Shown in pieces: positions 1 to 5,508 of a DNA stretch of 64,000 bases. Numbering within the stretch: position 1 is the stretch's first letter; each line of letters starts with the position of its first letter. The translations under genes and the position numbers were made by a program. The notes below the pieces were generated by a model, which saw only the letters and a program-made list of their open reading frames with translations, was not told the origin of the DNA and made no database searches. Source of the stretch: Escherichia phage vB_EcoM_F1. The DNA is taken from sequence record NC_054912.1; one strand, 5' to 3'.

Positions 1-2178
1 TTAGGCCGCAAGGGCCTTCATAGTTTTAGCGATTTGGGAAACTTCATCATCACTTAAAGAACTGCGATATCCGATGAAGTCGGAAACAATACGGAATTTC
101 TTGGTAAACTCAGCAACCATTTTATCACTGTTTTTTGAAGCATTATTTGATAATACACCAAAAAGATTAGTTACTGTCCAGATGTCATGACCGATGGTAT
201 CTCTTCCACCATTAAAATATACACCCTGTAATGAACTAACCATATTAGCGAGTCGTGTATATTCTTCAGAAACTTCATCTACACTGAAGTACTTCATCAT
301 AAAATCTAGCTCAGGATACTTGATAATTTTATCAATATATCGTTTAGCTGAACTTGAATAACCTACATACTTATCATAATCTACATCATCAAAAGCATCT
401 ACATATAAATCACGCAAAGCTTCAAAAATACATTGGCACTGACCGAGTTCTTTTACCTTTTTCTGTAAAAGCGGACGAATAACATAAAATTCATTAATGC
501 CAATAAGATTAGCCATACGAATCAAAATATTCATAGATGGATGACAAAGAGATGTAGTACCATCCATAGAGAAAATATCAGAACGATGCATATACGCTAC
601 ATAACCAGTAATTTCATCTGCTTCTGATGTGAGCGTAAATAATTCCTCTTTTTCCCAGCGCCCGTCTTTAATTTCAAACTTAAATGCTGTAGCAGCTTTA
701 GGACGAGGAGCTTTACTTTTAACTACCTTTGGAATATAACTTTTAACTAAAGCTTCAATTTCTGACAAATAATGAATGTTAACTTCATCACTTTCAAACA
801 TCGCCATAATATCAGGAAGCAAATCAATCTGCGATTCTACTTCCGGATTAATAAACAGAAGACGCTCATTATGATGAATATTCAAAGTGTTATTAAATTC
901 ACTATCATCTAACGCACGTGCTAATCCACGGATAATATTAACACGATTTTTAATATTATCAATAACAATATTAATTTTTGTTGTATTAATACCAAACAGA
1001 CGATAACTTGATGCAACGGCTGAAGTTTCATGACTTTGCTTAATGCGTTTCAGTCGAGGGTCAAGATTTACTTCATACACAACTCCTGCATTGCATAACT
1101 TACTGTCAGGTTCAAACATGCTCTGCATCTTTTTATATGACAGATTTTTAGTCGTGAATTTGACTGAATTACTAATCATATAATCTCGAGCAGAATACCC
1201 CATCTTCATCAATTCACGATATGTGTGACGAGGAGATGTAGATTCTTTAAATCGTTTTACATCTTCATTAAATGCTTTCTCACTGAGTTCTTTAACTCGT
1301 TCAATAATATTTTTACGAGTACGATCATCCAGTGAAAGAGCTTCACGTGATGGAGCAATATCAAGTGAACCCATTGGAAACTTAATGTAATTCACTTCAT
1401 TGCGAATGCTTAGCCAGTTACGGTCTCTAATAACACCATCGATAGGATAAACAATACCACCATAGATAGCATATAATCCACCACGATCTGGCCAGTATCT
1501 TTCTGGATTTACACCGTAATAATCATCAAAATCCGGAAAATAATCAATTTCGCGGTCAAGACCATTAATGATAGCCAAATCTTTGAACGGTCGCATGATA
1601 TAAGAAACTTCATAAGCAAAGTTTCTAAAGTCTTTTTCTTCAACTGGAACTACGATTTCAATACCAGTTTTATCATCTGGACCCATTTCTTTTACGAATG
1701 TAGGTTTAATCTGTGGTCCATCACCATCCATGTAAGCTACATAACCACGAATTTCACCTTTATGATACGAAGTAATACTAAACGTATCAGTATAACTAAA
1801 CGGAGATTTAGAACCTAAACCAAATCCGCCAATGAAATCGTTAGATTCAGCCTTAGATGAACTGAAGTATGAATTATATAGACCAGGAGAATTATCATCA
1901 CCCTGAATATCAAAATCACTCATACCCGGACCAAAATCTCGACAAACAAATCGTGGATCTAAACGTCCAGGAACTTGTATGATAAATTTTTCAGGATTTC
2001 CATTGAGTGCATGGGCATCAATCATGTTAGTAATCAATTCACGGACTACTGCGCGAATCTTGTTTGTATACAAATCAGATGACAGAATTTTAAATACTTT
2101 AGGAGATGCTGTGATGCTAAATGCTTTTGATTTAGAACCATTACCAAGAATTGTTTCTTTTTCAGTGGTGATAATCAT
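1..2178 (-). CDS. rIIA: rIIA protein (rapid-lysis / exclusion locus, GHKL-ATPase-like N-terminal region)
   Basis: 725-aa ORF with stop at 1-3; sequence recognised as T-even rIIA; 725 aa is the T4 rIIA length as I recall it. Confidence 0.9.
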
Positions 2179-2188
2179 AATTTCCTCA

Positions 2189-2392
2189 TTAATTCATATT
2201 ACGCTTAATAACTTCAGCAACTTCTAGTAGTTCATCTTTAGTTGCAGTGTCGGATTGAATTTTATCTCTAATATCCTTAAAGCGGTTTTTAAATTCTTCG
2301 GCTTCTCCCATATCGAAAAAGCGTTGAATGATTCTATATTCTCGATGAACTGCTTTATCAAAAAGTTCTAAATTTACTTTATATGATTTCAT
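2189..2392 (-). CDS. small hypothetical protein (rIIA.1 position)
   Basis: 67-aa ORF directly upstream of rIIA on the same strand. Confidence 0.5.
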
Positions 2393-2417
2393 TTCAATAT
2401 CCTCATTTGCCCAATTA

Positions 2418-2447
2418 ATTATACCACATCCTTGTGGTAAAGTAAAC
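2418..2447 (-). promoter_or_regulatory. T4-type early promoter (GTTTAC -35, TGGTATAAT -10) reading toward rIIA.1/rIIA
   Basis: minus strand reads GTTTACtttaccacaaggatgTGGTATAAT. Confidence 0.5.
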
Positions 2448-2547
2448 TACTGGCTCATCCATTCTTTACGAAGGTCAGGATTAAATGGGACTGCACGAGA
2501 TGGGATAAACATAACTTTCATAATTAAGCCTTATTAAAATTAAAATG

Positions 2548-2565
2548 AAGCTCCCGAAGGAGCTT
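2548..2565 (-). terminator. stem-loop with UUCG tetraloop followed by U-rich tract (intrinsic terminator-like)
   Basis: aagctcc-cgaa-ggagctt inverted repeat; minus-strand RNA continues cauuuuaauuuu. Confidence 0.5.
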
Positions 2566-3361
2566 AGGACATCCAACACATTTTATAACCTTTGCAGGTT
2601 CTGTTAGGATTATTTAATGCTTTCAATATATTAGAAGACCCTATATCTAAATACTCCCTTAATTCATAAAGATAGTTAAAATCAATAGTTTCACCTGTTT
2701 TTACACTTGTGATTCTTATAGGCCTTCTTTCATATTTAGATTTATACAACTCTCTAGTCTTAGCTTTAGTTTCTTCTGACCTAGGAGTGTATGGTTTAAA
2801 TCCTTTTGTTTTAAATGTTTCCATTCTTGATTTAGTTATTTTATCCTGGTGTTCTTTTGTTTTTACAGGTGCTTTTCGCCCATTCTCCCAAGATAACTTG
2901 TTGGCCTGTATTATTTTATCTATTGCTTCTTGCGTATGAGTTTTACCATAAAATGGATTTAATTCGCCTATACGTTGTGAAGCAATATGTGACATTAATT
3001 CTCTTGTTGCTTTAGTATGTTTTTTACCTTTAAATGGGTTGCCATTTTTAGCAATCCATTCTTTCATAAATCTAGAGTGCTCTTTAGAGAATTCTTGTTT
3101 AAGCCAATCATAATCTCTAGAATTTCTAGCTCCCATGTAAAAAGCTCTAATAGCCATAAGCATAGAACGGTTCTTATGAATTTTATAAAGCAATAAATGG
3201 GCGATAAAATGCTCTCTAGGGGTCATTTTAACTAGATTTGATTTAGCATTACTCCCGCCCATAGATTTAGGCAAAATATGGTGAGTTTCAGTATAATTAG
3301 GAATAGTGCTGCGGTTTTTAGCCGCAGCGATAAGTTTATCATAAATTTTACGATAATTCAT
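2564..3361 (-). CDS. HNH-family homing endonuclease-like protein
   Basis: 265-aa ORF with HHILPKSMGG..N motif typical of HNH nucleases; ATG overlaps gene 39 stop (TAATG); track start at 3376 is a TTG. Confidence 0.7.
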   Translation of the reverse strand: MNYRKIYDKLIAAAKNRSTIPNYTETHHILPKSMGGSNAKSNLVKMTPREHFIAHLLLYKIHKNRSMLMAIRAFYMGARNSRDYDWLKQEFSKEHSRFMKEWIAKNGNPFKGKKHTKATRELMSHIASQRIGELNPFYGKTHTQEAIDKIIQANKLSWENGRKAPVKTKEHQDKITKSRMETFKTKGFKPYTPRSEETKAKTRELYKSKYERRPIRITSVKTGETIDFNYLYELREYLDIGSSNILKALNNPNRTCKGYKMCWMS

Positions 3362-5178
3362 TATCCTAGCATCCAATCTTTACGGAGTTCAGGGTCGTTA
3401 CCCATGAGCATTTCAAATAGTTCTTTCCAATTTTCAGGAAGTTTAACTACGTCGTACACAGGGTTTTGAATCATTTCTTTATATTCATCCCGCTGAAGTG
3501 AGCCCAATCCCTTGATGTATCGAATACTATGCTTAGGCAGTGTATCTTTAGCTTCTTCATACTCAGCTACAGTATAAAACCATTTTTGAGTTTTGCCAAT
3601 TTGTGCAATAATTACAGGCGTTTTAACAAAGCGAATACGTCCTTGTTCAAACAATTCAGGCCAATTACTAAAGAAAGCAAGCAAAGCCGGATAAATACTT
3701 CCAAGACCGTCGTGATCTGCGTCAGTCATAATTGCAATATTACGATAGTTCGTATTCTCTGCCTTTTCACCAAGAACTAGACCAGTGATTGCGCAAATAT
3801 CAAATAGTTCTTTGTTTTTAAGCATATCAGCATATGACATACCCCAACTGTTGAGAACTTTACCACGTAATGGATAACCACCATGAAGTTCTTTATCACG
3901 AACATCAATAAGATATCCGATAGCAGAATCACCCTCAGTCAAGAAAAGAGTAGTGTCAGCATCTTTACCACAAAGATTCGCTTTGATATGTTTATGAACC
4001 TTAGCTTTAGAAGCCTTTTTAGCTGCTTTAGTTTCTGCTGCTTTTTCTGCCGCCAATTTACGAGCCAAAGCAGCTTCAATAATCGGCATTAGAATTGCTT
4101 CATTATTTAGAATAGCGCGTGAAATCTTTTTAGCATCAAGTTGAATATGACTACGAATTTCGCCAAATGGAGAAGTCAAACGCTCTTTAGTTTGAGAATC
4201 AAATCGCATGTTTTTCATATCACGAACAAACATGACGATAGTCAAACATTCTTTGACACGTGCTTTAGTTACATCAATTTTGAACTTACGTTTGATTTGT
4301 GGAATAAGGTCTTCACAAATATCATCCATAACACAGTCAATGTGATGGCCACCATTCTTAGTGTGAATGTTATTCACATAAGTTAATTGACGAAAACCAT
4401 CCGGTGAACGACCAACTGCAATAGAACAATTTTCTTGTTCTTGAACGATAGCATGCTCATCATATTGGCGTGCATATTTCTTAAAATTACCCTGAACCTT
4501 TTTACCATTAAAGGTAAATTGAATATCAGGATAAACAACAGCAAGTGTCTGGAGACGATCTAGTGTAATGTCAAGATAAACTTGGGACAGCTCATTAGTT
4601 TCAAATGACATAAAATCAGGAATGAAAGTAACACGAGTTCCTTTCCATTTTCCTGGAATAGTTTCCCATGATTTATTTTCCATGCCATTTGAACAACGAA
4701 CTACAATATTATTTTGACCATCGCCAGTTTCACCAACAAACATCACAGAAAAAATGTTAGTTAAACTAGAACCAACACCATTCATACCGCCAGTGACGCG
4801 TTCTTTATCATCACCGAAGTTACCACCTGCTTTTGGAATAGTCCATGCAGCAACAGGACCAGGAATTTCTTCACCGGTAGGTGTTTTAACCATAGCCTGT
4901 GGAATACCACGACCGTTATCTTCAACTGTTACTTGATTGTTTTTAATAGTAACATTAATTTTATTTGCGAATTTAAACTTAGTACGAATACCTTCATCTA
5001 CTGAGTTATCGATAATTTCATCAATAAGCTTAACAAGACCAGGTACATACTGAACACTTTCCCATTTACCAAACAGAAAGCGCTCATGCATTTCATTAGC
5101 AGAAGAGCCAATATACATGCCGCTACGCTTTTTGATATGTTCAATATCGCTCAGAATTTTAATTTCATTCTTAATCAT
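3361..5178 (-). CDS. 39: DNA topoisomerase II large subunit, unsplit form (gene 39)
   Basis: 605-aa product from the ATG at 5178 (track ORF starts one codon upstream at a GTG); GHKL ATPase and TOPRIM-like motifs; N-terminus MIKNEIKILSDIEHIKKRSGMYIGSS recognised. Confidence 0.9.
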   Translation of the reverse strand: MIKNEIKILSDIEHIKKRSGMYIGSSANEMHERFLFGKWESVQYVPGLVKLIDEIIDNSVDEGIRTKFKFANKINVTIKNNQVTVEDNGRGIPQAMVKTPTGEEIPGPVAAWTIPKAGGNFGDDKERVTGGMNGVGSSLTNIFSVMFVGETGDGQNNIVVRCSNGMENKSWETIPGKWKGTRVTFIPDFMSFETNELSQVYLDITLDRLQTLAVVYPDIQFTFNGKKVQGNFKKYARQYDEHAIVQEQENCSIAVGRSPDGFRQLTYVNNIHTKNGGHHIDCVMDDICEDLIPQIKRKFKIDVTKARVKECLTIVMFVRDMKNMRFDSQTKERLTSPFGEIRSHIQLDAKKISRAILNNEAILMPIIEAALARKLAAEKAAETKAAKKASKAKVHKHIKANLCGKDADTTLFLTEGDSAIGYLIDVRDKELHGGYPLRGKVLNSWGMSYADMLKNKELFDICAITGLVLGEKAENTNYRNIAIMTDADHDGLGSIYPALLAFFSNWPELFEQGRIRFVKTPVIIAQIGKTQKWFYTVAEYEEAKDTLPKHSIRYIKGLGSLQRDEYKEMIQNPVYDVVKLPENWKELFEMLMGNDPELRKDWMLG

Positions 5179-5230
5179 CACTTATCCTCGTTTGGTTTCG
5201 GGAATATTATACTCCAATAATCATAAAGCT

Positions 5231-5248
5231 AAAGGCCCGAAGGCCTTT
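5231..5248 (-). terminator. GC stem-loop (aaaggcc-cgaa-ggccttt), T-rich on both sides
   Basis: perfect 7-bp stem with CGAA/UUCG loop between gene 39 start and upstream gene end. Confidence 0.45.
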
Positions 5249-5508
5249 TATTTAAAACGAATAGTCGAATCCTTGAAGAATAGTCCAGAACATACTGTTC
5301 CTTCTACTTTCTGCCCAGTAGGTCCAATAGCACGAAATCCAGTATGCTGGAAATCATTTTCAGAGCAACCAAACCAATTGTATCCAGTGATTTCAATATT
5401 AGTAAACCCACTTGAAGACAAAACTTTGGTTGCATTATCAGCATCAGTACATCCTACTAAAGACACTGCTAATACTAATGCTGCAATAGAACGATTAACA
5501 TATTTCAT
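5248..5508 (-). CDS. predicted lipoprotein (signal peptide with LVGC lipobox)
   Basis: 86-aa ORF, N-terminus MKYVNRSIAALVLAVSLVGC. Confidence 0.6.
   Translation of the reverse strand: MKYVNRSIAALVLAVSLVGCTDADNATKVLSSSGFTNIEITGYNWFGCSENDFQHTGFRAIGPTGQKVEGTVCSGLFFKDSTIRFK

What the first reader, a model, noticed from the sequence alone, without database searches (positions are those of the whole stretch)
2564..5178. Intact gene 39 with an HNH endonuclease gene immediately downstream
In T4, as I recall, the topoisomerase large subunit is split into genes 39 and 60 with an endonuclease remnant between them, and gene 60 has a translational bypass. Here a single 605-aa product is encoded, and an HNH endonuclease ORF (HHILPKSMGG motif) is translationally coupled to its stop (TAATG). 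This may be the pre-split arrangement, with the endonuclease as a free-standing homing element.
Basis: partly seen in the sequence, partly recalled or inferred. Interest (0 to 1): 0.45.

Follow-up and report, generated by a model that had tools for sequence, protein, structure and literature searches.

The report
Homing endonuclease gene tucked into gene 39's end
A selfish Mob-type HNH homing endonuclease gene sits in the last codons of an unsplit T4-type topoisomerase gene; this coliphage acquired it recently from a phage of another genus, and it is an ordinary kind of element that is separate from T4's mobA/gene 60 insertion.

Summary
The window is Escherichia phage vB_EcoM_FN (Tequatrovirus). 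On the minus strand, gene 39 (3361..5178) is one uninterrupted 605-aa ORF. A 265-aa HNH/NUMOD3 ORF (2564..3361) starts on its stop codon (TAATG).

The unsplit gene is the known T2/T6 state. The HNH gene, however, is not the precursor of T4's mobA.
- It shares only the 70-aa nuclease domain with MobA (60% identity).
- It sits about 130 codons further 3'.
- Phage CJY920 carries both an intact MobA/bypass element and this gene.

In Mosigvirus genomes, occupied and empty alleles show an 800-nt insert two codons before the gene 39 stop. The insert gives gene 39 a new tail (LG*). The endonuclease ORF ends on the old tail (WMS*) and uses the old terminator.

FN carries a ~1.23-kb Mosigvirus patch that is 99.8% identical, while the rest of gene 39 is ~78% identical. 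The patch contains the gene 39 3' end, the endonuclease gene, the terminator and 16 codons of a Mosigvirus gene. It is joined by a 10-bp microhomology and leaves a 33-nt relic of FN's own gene 39 tail.

Full-length relatives (41-45% identity) also lie directly after gene 39 in three divergent phage lineages.

Verdict: an uncharacterised new member of a known kind; modest interest.

The parts
3361..5178 (-). Gene 39, DNA topoisomerase II large subunit. It is unsplit (605 aa). Its last ~335 nt (3361..~3700) are of Mosigvirus type.
   Evidence: ORF. Pfam HATPase_c/DNA_gyraseB/TOPRIM_C. 98% identical to T4 gp39 over aa 1-473 and 83% to gp60 over aa 27-158. Informative sites switch from Tequatrovirus-type to Mosigvirus-type between gene nt 1467 and 1485, which is window 3712..3694.
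2564..3361 (-). Mob-type HNH homing endonuclease gene (265 aa). It has an N-terminal HNH nuclease domain (aa 1-70), two NUMOD3 motifs and a C-terminal DNA-binding domain. Its ATG overlaps the gene 39 TAA.
2570..3369 (-). The 800-nt insert, as defined by comparing occupied and empty Mosigvirus alleles. It reads CTAGGATAATG...TGTTGGATG and is bounded by a TTGGATG direct repeat. It supplies gene 39's new last codons (LG*), an AGGA Shine-Dalgarno-like sequence 2 nt from the ATG, and the endonuclease ORF without a stop codon of its own.
   Evidence: Alignment of FN and phi25-307 (occupied) with NHEP36 and HX01 (empty); coordinates.
2548..2569 (-). The original Mosigvirus gene 39 tail (TCC TAA) followed by its terminator hairpin AAGCTCCTTCGGGAGCTT and a T-rich tail. 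It now ends the endonuclease ORF (..CWMS*) and its transcript.
   Evidence: Terminator scan. The same sequence directly follows gene 39 in the empty alleles.
2473..2521 (-). First 16 codons (MKVMFIPSRAVPFNPD) and ribosome-binding site of a Mosigvirus 366-aa gene. Some records annotate that gene as a glucosyl-/glycosyltransferase. The fragment was carried into this Tequatrovirus as a passenger.
   Evidence: 100% identical to phi25-307, where it heads the 366-aa ORF. Pfam finds no family.
2473..2482 (-). Right-hand recombination junction. It is the microhomology AATCCTGACC, shared between the Mosigvirus gene fragment and the Tequatrovirus gene 39 sequence AATGCTGACC (9 of 10 matches).
   Evidence: The junction is identical in FN, fPS-90, FL12 and BYEP01.
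2447..2479 (-). Relic of the phage's own gene 39 3' end, CCTGACCTTCGTAAAGAATGGATGAGCCAGTAG (..(P)DLRKEWMSQ*). It is 23/33 identical to the functional tail. It is fused in frame to the fragment above, giving a chimeric 24-codon ORF (2447..2521).
   Evidence: Identical to the gene 39/60 3' end of T4 and (2 SNPs) of SP21535, followed by the same intergenic sequence; coordinates and translation.

Best explanation
The 265-aa ORF is a Mob-type HNH homing endonuclease gene. Its lineage specialises in the extreme 3' end of the phage topoisomerase II large-subunit gene.

Shown from sequence:
- In its Mosigvirus home the 800-nt element lies two codons before the gene 39 stop.
- The element gives gene 39 a substitute tail and stop codon, and it places its own ATG on that stop.
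- It has no promoter or terminator of its own within the resolution of the scans.
- Its ORF finishes on the displaced gene 39 codons and uses the old terminator.

Inferred expression: the gene is co-transcribed with gene 39 and translated at a low level by termination-reinitiation. T4 mobE after nrdA has the same UAAUGA arrangement.

Inferred mechanism: the protein nicks or cuts the unoccupied allele at or near the gene 39 stop/terminator junction. The break is repaired from the occupied genome during mixed infection. This copies in the gene together with a variable length of gene 39.

Shown history of phage FN:
- A ~1.23-kb Mosigvirus segment replaced the end of a Tequatrovirus gene 39.
- The left crossover lay in conserved Toprim-coding DNA.
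- Tequatroviruses have no homolog of the Mosigvirus downstream gene. The right end was therefore sealed illegitimately at a 10-bp microhomology.
- This stranded a 33-nt relic of the native gene 39 tail and 16 codons of a foreign gene.
- That single founding event then spread among Tequatroviruses by homologous recombination, leaving different left boundaries.
For: Identity of the protein:
- HNH motif residues are invariant in 25 homologs.
- The nuclease domain is 60% identical to MobA.
- PHROG 655 scores E = 1e-55. NUMOD3 is above its Pfam cut-off.
- The C-terminal part matches the I-TevI-type group I intron endonuclease model.
- The best structural match is I-HmuI.

Mobility:
- 26 of 741 records matching this region carry the gene. 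20 Mosigvirus records are occupied and about 150 more Mosigvirus-like records match at 95-99% without it (two pieces, 62-63% of the query).
- FN and phi25-307 are 99-100% identical across window ~3775..2473, but ~78% identical over the rest of gene 39. There are 2 differences in ~1225 nt.
- Informative sites switch cleanly from Tequatrovirus-type to Mosigvirus-type.
- Four or five different left boundaries accompany one identical right junction in five Tequatroviruses.

Anatomy of the insertion.

Site specificity:
- Full-length relatives (41-45% identity) lie directly after an unsplit gene 39 in three divergent metagenomic T4-like lineages.
- None of 80 generic Mob-like loci from IMG/VR has a gp39 homolog within 2.5 kb.

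Coupling: stop/start overlaps TAATG, GTGA and ATGA occur in three of four lineages.

The mobE UAAUGA precedent and the promoter-less cassette pattern are described in PMC2988022.
Against: - No biochemical or genetic evidence shows that this protein cuts DNA, and the target site is unknown.
- The Pfam HNH_4 match is below its gathering score (16.7 against 22 bits).
- The sequence match to solved HNH proteins is weak (McrA, E = 0.38).
- Occupied and empty Mosigvirus alleles are identical up to the insertion point. Immunity of the occupied allele must therefore rest on the insertion itself, which is untested.
- The 33-nt relic keeps CGTAAAGAATGGATG intact in occupied Tequatroviruses. Either that sequence is not sufficient for cleavage, or Tequatrovirus DNA is not a substrate and spread there is passive recombination.
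- Two records (AV118, ECO111 5-P) appear to have frameshifted copies. The gene may therefore be decaying in some lineages.
Confidence: 0.8

Rival explanations
1. This is the ancestral, pre-split form of the T4 39/mobA/60 locus, and the downstream HNH gene is the free-standing ancestor that later jumped into gene 39 and split it.
For: The nuclease domain is 53-60% identical to T4/CJY920 MobA. Both elements are tied to the same host gene. The unsplit gene is indeed the ancestral state (Manning & Atkins).
Against: The insertion sites are ~130 codons apart: codon 603 here against aa 466-473 for MobA. The ~195 aa that carry the DNA-binding specificity are unrelated. CJY920 carries both elements intact. 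The nuclease domain is shared by the whole Mob family, so it does not link these two in particular.
Confidence: 0.05
2. The gene is an inactive or passive passenger. Its patchy distribution and the cross-genus patch result only from the general high-frequency recombination of T-even phages. The protein does no homing, or it has been domesticated for another role such as excluding competitor phages.
For: No activity data exist. Two copies seem frameshifted. A footprint allele without the gene exists in 6 records. The intact relic in Tequatroviruses argues that the local sequence is not being cut.
Against: The ORF is intact and at least 99% identical in 24-26 records from two genera. Its catalytic residues are invariant. 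The recombinant patch is centred on the gene, with variable tract lengths on the homologous side. Relatives at 41-45% identity keep the same genomic address in divergent phages. That pattern is what target-site-specific homing predicts and what random recombination does not.
Confidence: 0.13
3. The small chimeric ORF (2447..2521, MKVMFIPSRAVPFNPDLRKEWMSQ*) is a functional micro-gene. On this view it supplies the native gp39 C-terminal peptide in trans, a miniature gene 60.
For: It has a start codon, an AAGG sequence upstream and an in-frame fusion to the native gene 39 tail. It is conserved in all five occupied Tequatroviruses.
Against: Its first 16 codons are simply the start of an unrelated Mosigvirus 366-aa gene. 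The functional gene 39 already has a complete tail. Conservation is explained by the single recent founding event. The region shows no unusual RNA structure (z = -0.16).
Confidence: 0.02

Closest known systems
T4 MobA element (mobA plus the gene 60 bypass cassette; Bonocora et al. 2011 as cited in Manning & Atkins, bioRxiv 10.1101/2022.08.31.505936)
   Same: Both are Mob-type HNH nucleases (60% identical over aa 1-70). Both use the same host gene. Both insert inside the coding sequence and carry element-encoded replacement coding sequence. In both, the start overlaps the upstream ORF.
   Different: The site differs: codon ~603 here against aa 466-473. This element does not split the gene, adds no 44-aa extensions and has no 50-nt bypass. 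Its DNA-binding region is unrelated. It is 800 nt long against ~1100 nt. The two coexist in phage CJY920.
T4 MobE (between nrdA and nrdB) and the Aeh1 MobE insertion in nrdA (PMC2988022)
   Same: Both are promoter-less Mob-family cassettes. The start codon overlaps the stop of the upstream essential gene as UAAUGA, exactly as here. Both are co-transcribed with the host gene.
   Different: MobE targets the nrd genes. T4 MobE is truly intergenic. Aeh1 MobE splits its host gene, whereas this element only swaps the last two codons.
I-HmuI (PDB 1U3E), the intron-encoded HNH nicking homing endonuclease of Bacillus phage SPO1
   Different: I-HmuI is intron-encoded and has only 16-19% identity over ~90 aligned residues. 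This protein has NUMOD3 repeats and a different C-terminal domain. Whether it nicks or cuts both strands is unknown.
T2/T6-type unsplit gp39 (605 aa; PMC11461880)
   Same: Length, domain order and collinearity all match. FN gp39 is of this type.
   Different: The C-terminal ~110 aa of FN gp39 come from a Mosigvirus allele, and the last residues are ...WMLG instead of ...WMSQ.

Membership tests
HNH (ββα-metal) homing endonucleases, Mob family of T4-like phages | HNH catalytic residues (general-base His, structural Asn, metal-binding His) are present | tested here: met
   H27, H28, N42, H51 and H55 are invariant in a 25-sequence alignment. They align with HH..N..H..H of EcoKMcrA.
HNH (ββα-metal) homing endonucleases, Mob family of T4-like phages | Curated HNH domain model matched above its gathering score | tested here: inconclusive
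   Pfam HNH_4 scores 16.7 bits against a cut-off of 22. However, PHROG 655 'homing endonuclease' scores E = 1e-55, and the protein is 60% identical to the MobA nuclease domain.
HNH (ββα-metal) homing endonucleases, Mob family of T4-like phages | Modular architecture: nuclease domain plus a separate DNA-binding region (NUMOD/IENR-type) | tested here: met
HNH (ββα-metal) homing endonucleases, Mob family of T4-like phages | Presence/absence polymorphism at one fixed site among otherwise closely related genomes | tested here: met
   Occupied and empty alleles exist in Mosigvirus and in Tequatrovirus.
HNH (ββα-metal) homing endonucleases, Mob family of T4-like phages | Co-conversion of flanking host-gene sequence with the endonuclease gene | tested here: met
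   There is a 99.8% identical patch against a ~78% background. Left boundaries vary among phages.
HNH (ββα-metal) homing endonucleases, Mob family of T4-like phages | Site-specific nicking or cleavage of the unoccupied allele, and super-Mendelian inheritance in mixed infection | not testable with these tools
   This needs purified protein and phage crosses.
MobA element (topoisomerase-splitting cassette with translational bypass) | Insertion at aa 466-473 of the topoisomerase large subunit, splitting it into two ORFs with element-encoded extensions | tested here: not met
   Gene 39 is one 605-aa ORF. The insertion lies after codon 603. There is no extra sequence at nt 1399-1482 relative to unsplit homologs.
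MobA element (topoisomerase-splitting cassette with translational bypass) | 50-nt bypass (coding gap) cassette | tested here: not met
   The reading frame is continuous and collinear with unsplit gp39 of SP21535.
MobA element (topoisomerase-splitting cassette with translational bypass) | Full-length homology to MobA protein (269-279 aa) | tested here: not met
   Only aa 1-70 align with the intact CJY920 MobA. The match to the Thanatos-1 MobA-type protein is likewise convincing only at the N-terminus.
T4-type DNA topoisomerase II large subunit, unsplit (T2/T6 type) | GHKL ATPase, transducer and Toprim domains in one ~605-aa chain, collinear with T4 gp39 plus gp60 | tested here: met
   Pfam HATPase_c and DNA_gyraseB are above their cut-offs, and TOPRIM_C and Toprim are just below. 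NCBIfam gyrB/parE models match across aa 4-602.

The most novel reading that the evidence does not exclude
These elements may form a second, previously undescribed family of topoisomerase-gene cassettes, parallel to MobA.
- The element invades the coding sequence itself.
- It carries a 'prosthetic' gene tail: 9 nt in the Mosigvirus element and 27 nt in the divergent L009 element, which also leaves a relic of the old tail.
- That tail would serve two purposes at once. It keeps the essential gene intact, and it destroys the endonuclease's own target. That would be the role MobA's bypass cassette plays, achieved far more simply.
- The FN junction would then be a natural record of a homing endonuclease gene 'transposing' into a genome that lacks homology on one side, by microhomology-mediated repair.
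Probability: 0.3. Interest if true: 0.5.

Novelty: new member of a known kind. Interest (0 to 1): 0.3.

Why it matters
The gene is an ordinary kind of selfish element. Public records already label it 'homing endonuclease' (fPS-90 g003c, phi25-307, phiC120 ORF117), so it changes no concept. Its value is as a clean natural example.
- It shows that the T-even topoisomerase gene has two independent endonuclease landing sites, which can both be occupied.
- It shows how such a gene can sit inside the last codons of an essential gene without an intron, intein or bypass, by swapping the tail and coupling its translation to the host gene.
- It documents a recent cross-genus transfer (Mosigvirus to Tequatrovirus) with one homologous and one microhomology junction.

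It also offers a simple test system for target recognition and immunity in Mob endonucleases, because four kinds of allele exist: occupied, empty, the footprint allele, and Tequatrovirus alleles.

Tried and rejected
- Rfam scan of 2100..5500 at E up to 1 found nothing, so there is no known RNA element or bypass-like family.
- There is no T4 late-promoter box TATAAATA near the gene; the window has only three, all far away. The sigma-70-type scan found no more sites than its shuffles.
- RNA folding around the endonuclease start gives z = -3.6, but most of that is a GC hairpin inside the coding region (3308..3328). The start codon is not clearly sequestered, so I make no regulatory claim. The relic region shows no structure.
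- A sequence search of solved structures gave only a weak McrA hit.
- The IMG/VR scan returned only generic Mob-like genes, none next to gene 39. I used it as a background control.
- L009 has no close relative among deposited phages (at most 74% nt identity), so its empty site could not be defined.
- The Shewanella phage Thanatos-1 hit looked like a full-length relative but is a MobA-type split-gene element with homology only in the nuclease domain.
- I considered whether FN's left crossover (gene nt 1467-1485) is tied to the 3' edge of the MobA site (~nt 1470-1482). I rejected this as general, because fPS-90, FL12, BYEP01 and CJY920 cross over elsewhere and the stretch is the most conserved DNA of the gene.
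- Pfam finds no family for the Mosigvirus 366-aa downstream gene.
- Bonocora et al. 2011 (PMC3182709) is not held, so it is cited only through papers that describe it.
Full report
**1. What is there**

The window is 100% identical to Escherichia phage vB_EcoM_FN (MZ170041.1), a Tequatrovirus, over the region searched (2180..5260). The genes at this end read on the minus strand, in T4 order:
- rIIA (1..2178);
- rIIA.1 (2189..2392; Pfam T4_RIIA1);
- a 265-aa ORF (2564..3361);
- gene 39 (3361..5178).

Gene 39 is one open frame of 605 codons from the ATG at 5178. Its product matches T4 gp39 over aa 1-473 (98%) and then T4 gp60 over aa 27-158 (83%). It lacks the insert-encoded extensions and the coding gap of T4. 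It carries the GHKL ATPase, transducer and Toprim-associated domains.

The 265-aa ORF begins MNYRKIYDKL. Its ATG shares an A with the gene 39 TAA (GGATAATGAAT). It contains ETHHILPKSMGG.

**2. What the 265-aa protein is**

- Pfam finds two NUMOD3 motifs above threshold and a sub-threshold HNH_4 match.
- PHROG 655 ('homing endonuclease') matches at E = 1e-55.
- The C-terminal half matches the DNA-binding part of the group I intron endonuclease model TIGR01453.
- In an alignment of 25 homologs, H27, H28, N42, H51 and H55 are invariant. They align with the HNH residues of EcoKMcrA.
- Against an intact MobA (272 aa, from phage CJY920), identity is 60% but only over aa 1-70, the nuclease domain. 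The rest is unrelated.

It is therefore a Mob-family HNH homing endonuclease with its own DNA-binding region. Relatives' records already annotate it as 'homing endonuclease'. The phiC120 genome paper merely lists it (PMC8022965). I found no study of it in four literature searches.

**3. It is a separate element from mobA**

According to Manning & Atkins (bioRxiv 10.1101/2022.08.31.505936), the MobA element has these properties:
- it always inserts at aa 466-473 of the topoisomerase gene;
- it splits the gene;
- it adds ~44-aa extensions;
- it carries the 50-nt bypass.

None of these holds here. Decisively, phage CJY920 carries a split gene 39 (516-aa ORF1), an intact MobA and a gene 60-type ORF, and also this same 265-aa gene after gene 60. 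The two elements therefore occupy two sites in one gene. The 'pre-split ancestor' idea is not supported, although an unsplit gene 39 is indeed the ancestral and common state (T2 and T6, PMC11461880; most of the 741 matching records).

**4. Anatomy of the insertion**

Twenty Mosigvirus records carry the gene, and about 150 more Mosigvirus-like records match the flanks at 95-99% identity without it. I aligned occupied phi25-307 with empty NHEP36 and HX01.
- Empty alleles end gene 39 as ...AAA GAT TGG ATG TCC TAA, followed directly by a terminator hairpin.
- Occupied alleles read ...GAT TGG ATG CTA GGA TAA TG...[endonuclease]...TGT TGG ATG TCC TAA plus the same hairpin.

The insert is thus 800 nt (window 3369..2570). 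It is bounded by a TTGGATG repeat and lies two codons before the stop. Four consequences follow:
- Gene 39 acquires a new tail (LG* in place of S*).
- The insert supplies an AGGA sequence and places its ATG on that new stop.
- The endonuclease ORF has no stop of its own. It runs, in frame, into the displaced gene 39 codons (..CWMS*).
- Transcription ends at the old gene 39 terminator.

Relatives end ..GFKWKY.., which confirms that the last residues here are borrowed. No promoter-like signal stands out. By analogy with the promoter-less T4 cassettes, and with the identical UAAUGA overlap of nrdA/mobE (PMC2988022), I infer co-transcription with gene 39 and low-level coupled translation.

**5. 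How phage FN got it**

FN and the Mosigvirus phi25-307 are ~78% identical over most of gene 39. They are 99-100% identical from about window 3775 to 2473, with two differences in ~1225 nt.

A three-way analysis of informative sites used SP21535 as the Tequatrovirus reference and phi25-307 as the Mosigvirus reference. FN switches from Tequatrovirus-type to Mosigvirus-type between gene nt 1467 and 1485, which is window 3712..3694.

The patch does not stop at the endonuclease gene. It continues through the terminator into the ribosome-binding site and first 16 codons of the Mosigvirus 366-aa downstream gene (MKVMFIPSRAVPFNPD; window 2521..2473). Tequatroviruses do not have that gene at this position.

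The patch ends at AATCCTGACC. This matches AATGCTGACC in the Tequatrovirus gene 39 at 9 of 10 positions. From there on, FN carries the untouched last 33 nt of its own gene 39 (..DLRKEWMSQ*; window 2479..2447) and its normal intergenic region before rIIA.1. The right-hand junction is therefore an illegitimate, microhomology-mediated join. Its by-product is a chimeric 24-codon ORF that I regard as debris.

All five occupied Tequatroviruses (FN, fPS-90, FL12, BYEP01, CJY920) share this exact right junction (for CJY920 inferred from its collinear 97.6% match across it and the T-type sites that follow its M-tract). Their left boundaries differ:
- fPS-90 and FL12: gene nt 1402-1410;
- FN: 1467-1485;
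- BYEP01: 1485-1554;
- CJY920: about 1626-1746.

This indicates one founding event, followed by spread through homologous recombination with co-conversion tracts of different length.

**6. Site specificity of the lineage**

A search of 5.8 billion proteins found three full-length relatives at 41-45% identity. Each lies directly after an unsplit gene 39 homolog in a different, divergent T4-like contig.
- Two have stop/start overlaps: GTGA in L009 and ATGA in L013.
- In L012 the gene lies 35 nt downstream, behind a hairpin that contains its GGAGG.
- In L009 the endonuclease ORF again ends by running into a second, diverged copy of the gene 39 tail (CTTCGTAAAGAGTGGATGAATCAATAG; 18/27 identical to the functional tail). 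An element-borne replacement tail plus a stranded relic has therefore arisen at least twice.

As a control, none of 80 generic Mob-like loci from IMG/VR has a gp39 homolog within 2.5 kb. The address thus tracks the C-terminal DNA-binding domain, as expected for a target-specific homing lineage.

**7. Mechanism, and what is inferred**

Shown:
- the domain make-up and catalytic residues;
- the insertion anatomy;
- the polymorphism and co-conversion;
- the cross-genus patch and its junctions.

Inferred:
- The protein nicks or cuts the empty allele.
- The target spans the insertion point. Occupied and empty Mosigvirus alleles are identical up to that point, so only the insertion can confer immunity.
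- Expression is by translational coupling.

Open: whether Tequatrovirus DNA is a substrate at all. The intact relic in occupied Tequatroviruses suggests that CGTAAAGAATGGATG alone is not sufficient for cleavage.

**8. Verdict**

The finding is real and correctly described, but its evolutionary reading is mostly wrong. It is an uncharacterised new member of a known kind, the Mob-type HNH homing endonuclease genes of T-even phages. It has a tidy and instructive natural history. Interest is modest (0.3).

Noticed in passing
L006 (phage TH58) 2212..2227 and five other Mosigvirus records: There is a third allele at the insertion site: gene 39 ends ...WMLG* (CTTGGTTAA), followed by TTGATAGATG and then TCCTAA plus the terminator. 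This is a 19-nt footprint. It resembles the first ~14 nt (10/14 identical) and the last ~5 nt of the endonuclease insert. It looks like the scar of a lost, diverged copy, and it may block re-invasion. It occurs in 6 records.
   Followed up: partly
L008 (phage CJY920) 685..4344: One phage carries both an intact MobA element (272-aa MobA, split 39/60, gene 60-type ORF MKFVKIDSSS...) and the 3'-end endonuclease gene. It therefore has two homing endonuclease genes in one topoisomerase gene. Its Mosigvirus-type tract is the shortest of the five.
   Followed up: partly
L009 4470..4520 and 1144..1851: In a divergent metagenomic T4-like phage, the related endonuclease ORF ends inside a second copy of the gene 39 tail (LRKEWMNQ*), followed by a TATAAATA late-promoter box. 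The same contig has an Endonuclease_7-domain ORF (235 aa) immediately upstream of gene 39. Phage HX01 likewise has an annotated HNH endonuclease overlapping the gene 39 start. Gene 39 can thus be flanked by nuclease genes on both sides.
   Followed up: partly
records OR352948.1 (AV118) and OR844765.1 (ECO111 5-P): The endonuclease gene matches in two pieces and is one base longer or shorter than 795 nt. These are apparent frameshifts, so either decaying copies or sequencing errors.
   Followed up: no
window 3308..3328 (minus strand): A perfect 7-bp GC-rich hairpin (GCUGCGG CUAAAAA CCGCAGC) lies ~35 nt inside the endonuclease coding region. It accounts for much of the fold's z-score of -3.6 and has no T-run after it. 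Its function, if any, is unknown.
   Followed up: no
window 3694..3712: FN's left crossover (gene nt 1467-1485) falls within a few bases of where the 3' edge of the MobA element lies in T4-clade phages (~nt 1470-1482, per Manning & Atkins). Other occupied phages cross over elsewhere, and the stretch is the most conserved DNA in the gene. This is probably coincidence.
   Followed up: yes
L017 (Shewanella phage Thanatos-1) 969..3826: The topoisomerase gene is split into a 511-aa ORF, a 270-aa Mob-type HNH gene (GTG start, overlapping), a 44-aa gene 60-like ORF ending ...MTDADVDG*, a gap, and an 83-aa C-terminal ORF. It looks like a MobA-type element with a bypass-like coding gap in a Shewanella phage. 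I did not check whether it is among the clades already described.
   Followed up: no
window 2418..2446 (minus strand): A sigma-70-like promoter (TTTACT-17-TATAAT with an extended TG) sits immediately after the relic, upstream of rIIA.1. It belongs to the native Tequatrovirus intergenic region, which the insertion left intact.
   Followed up: no
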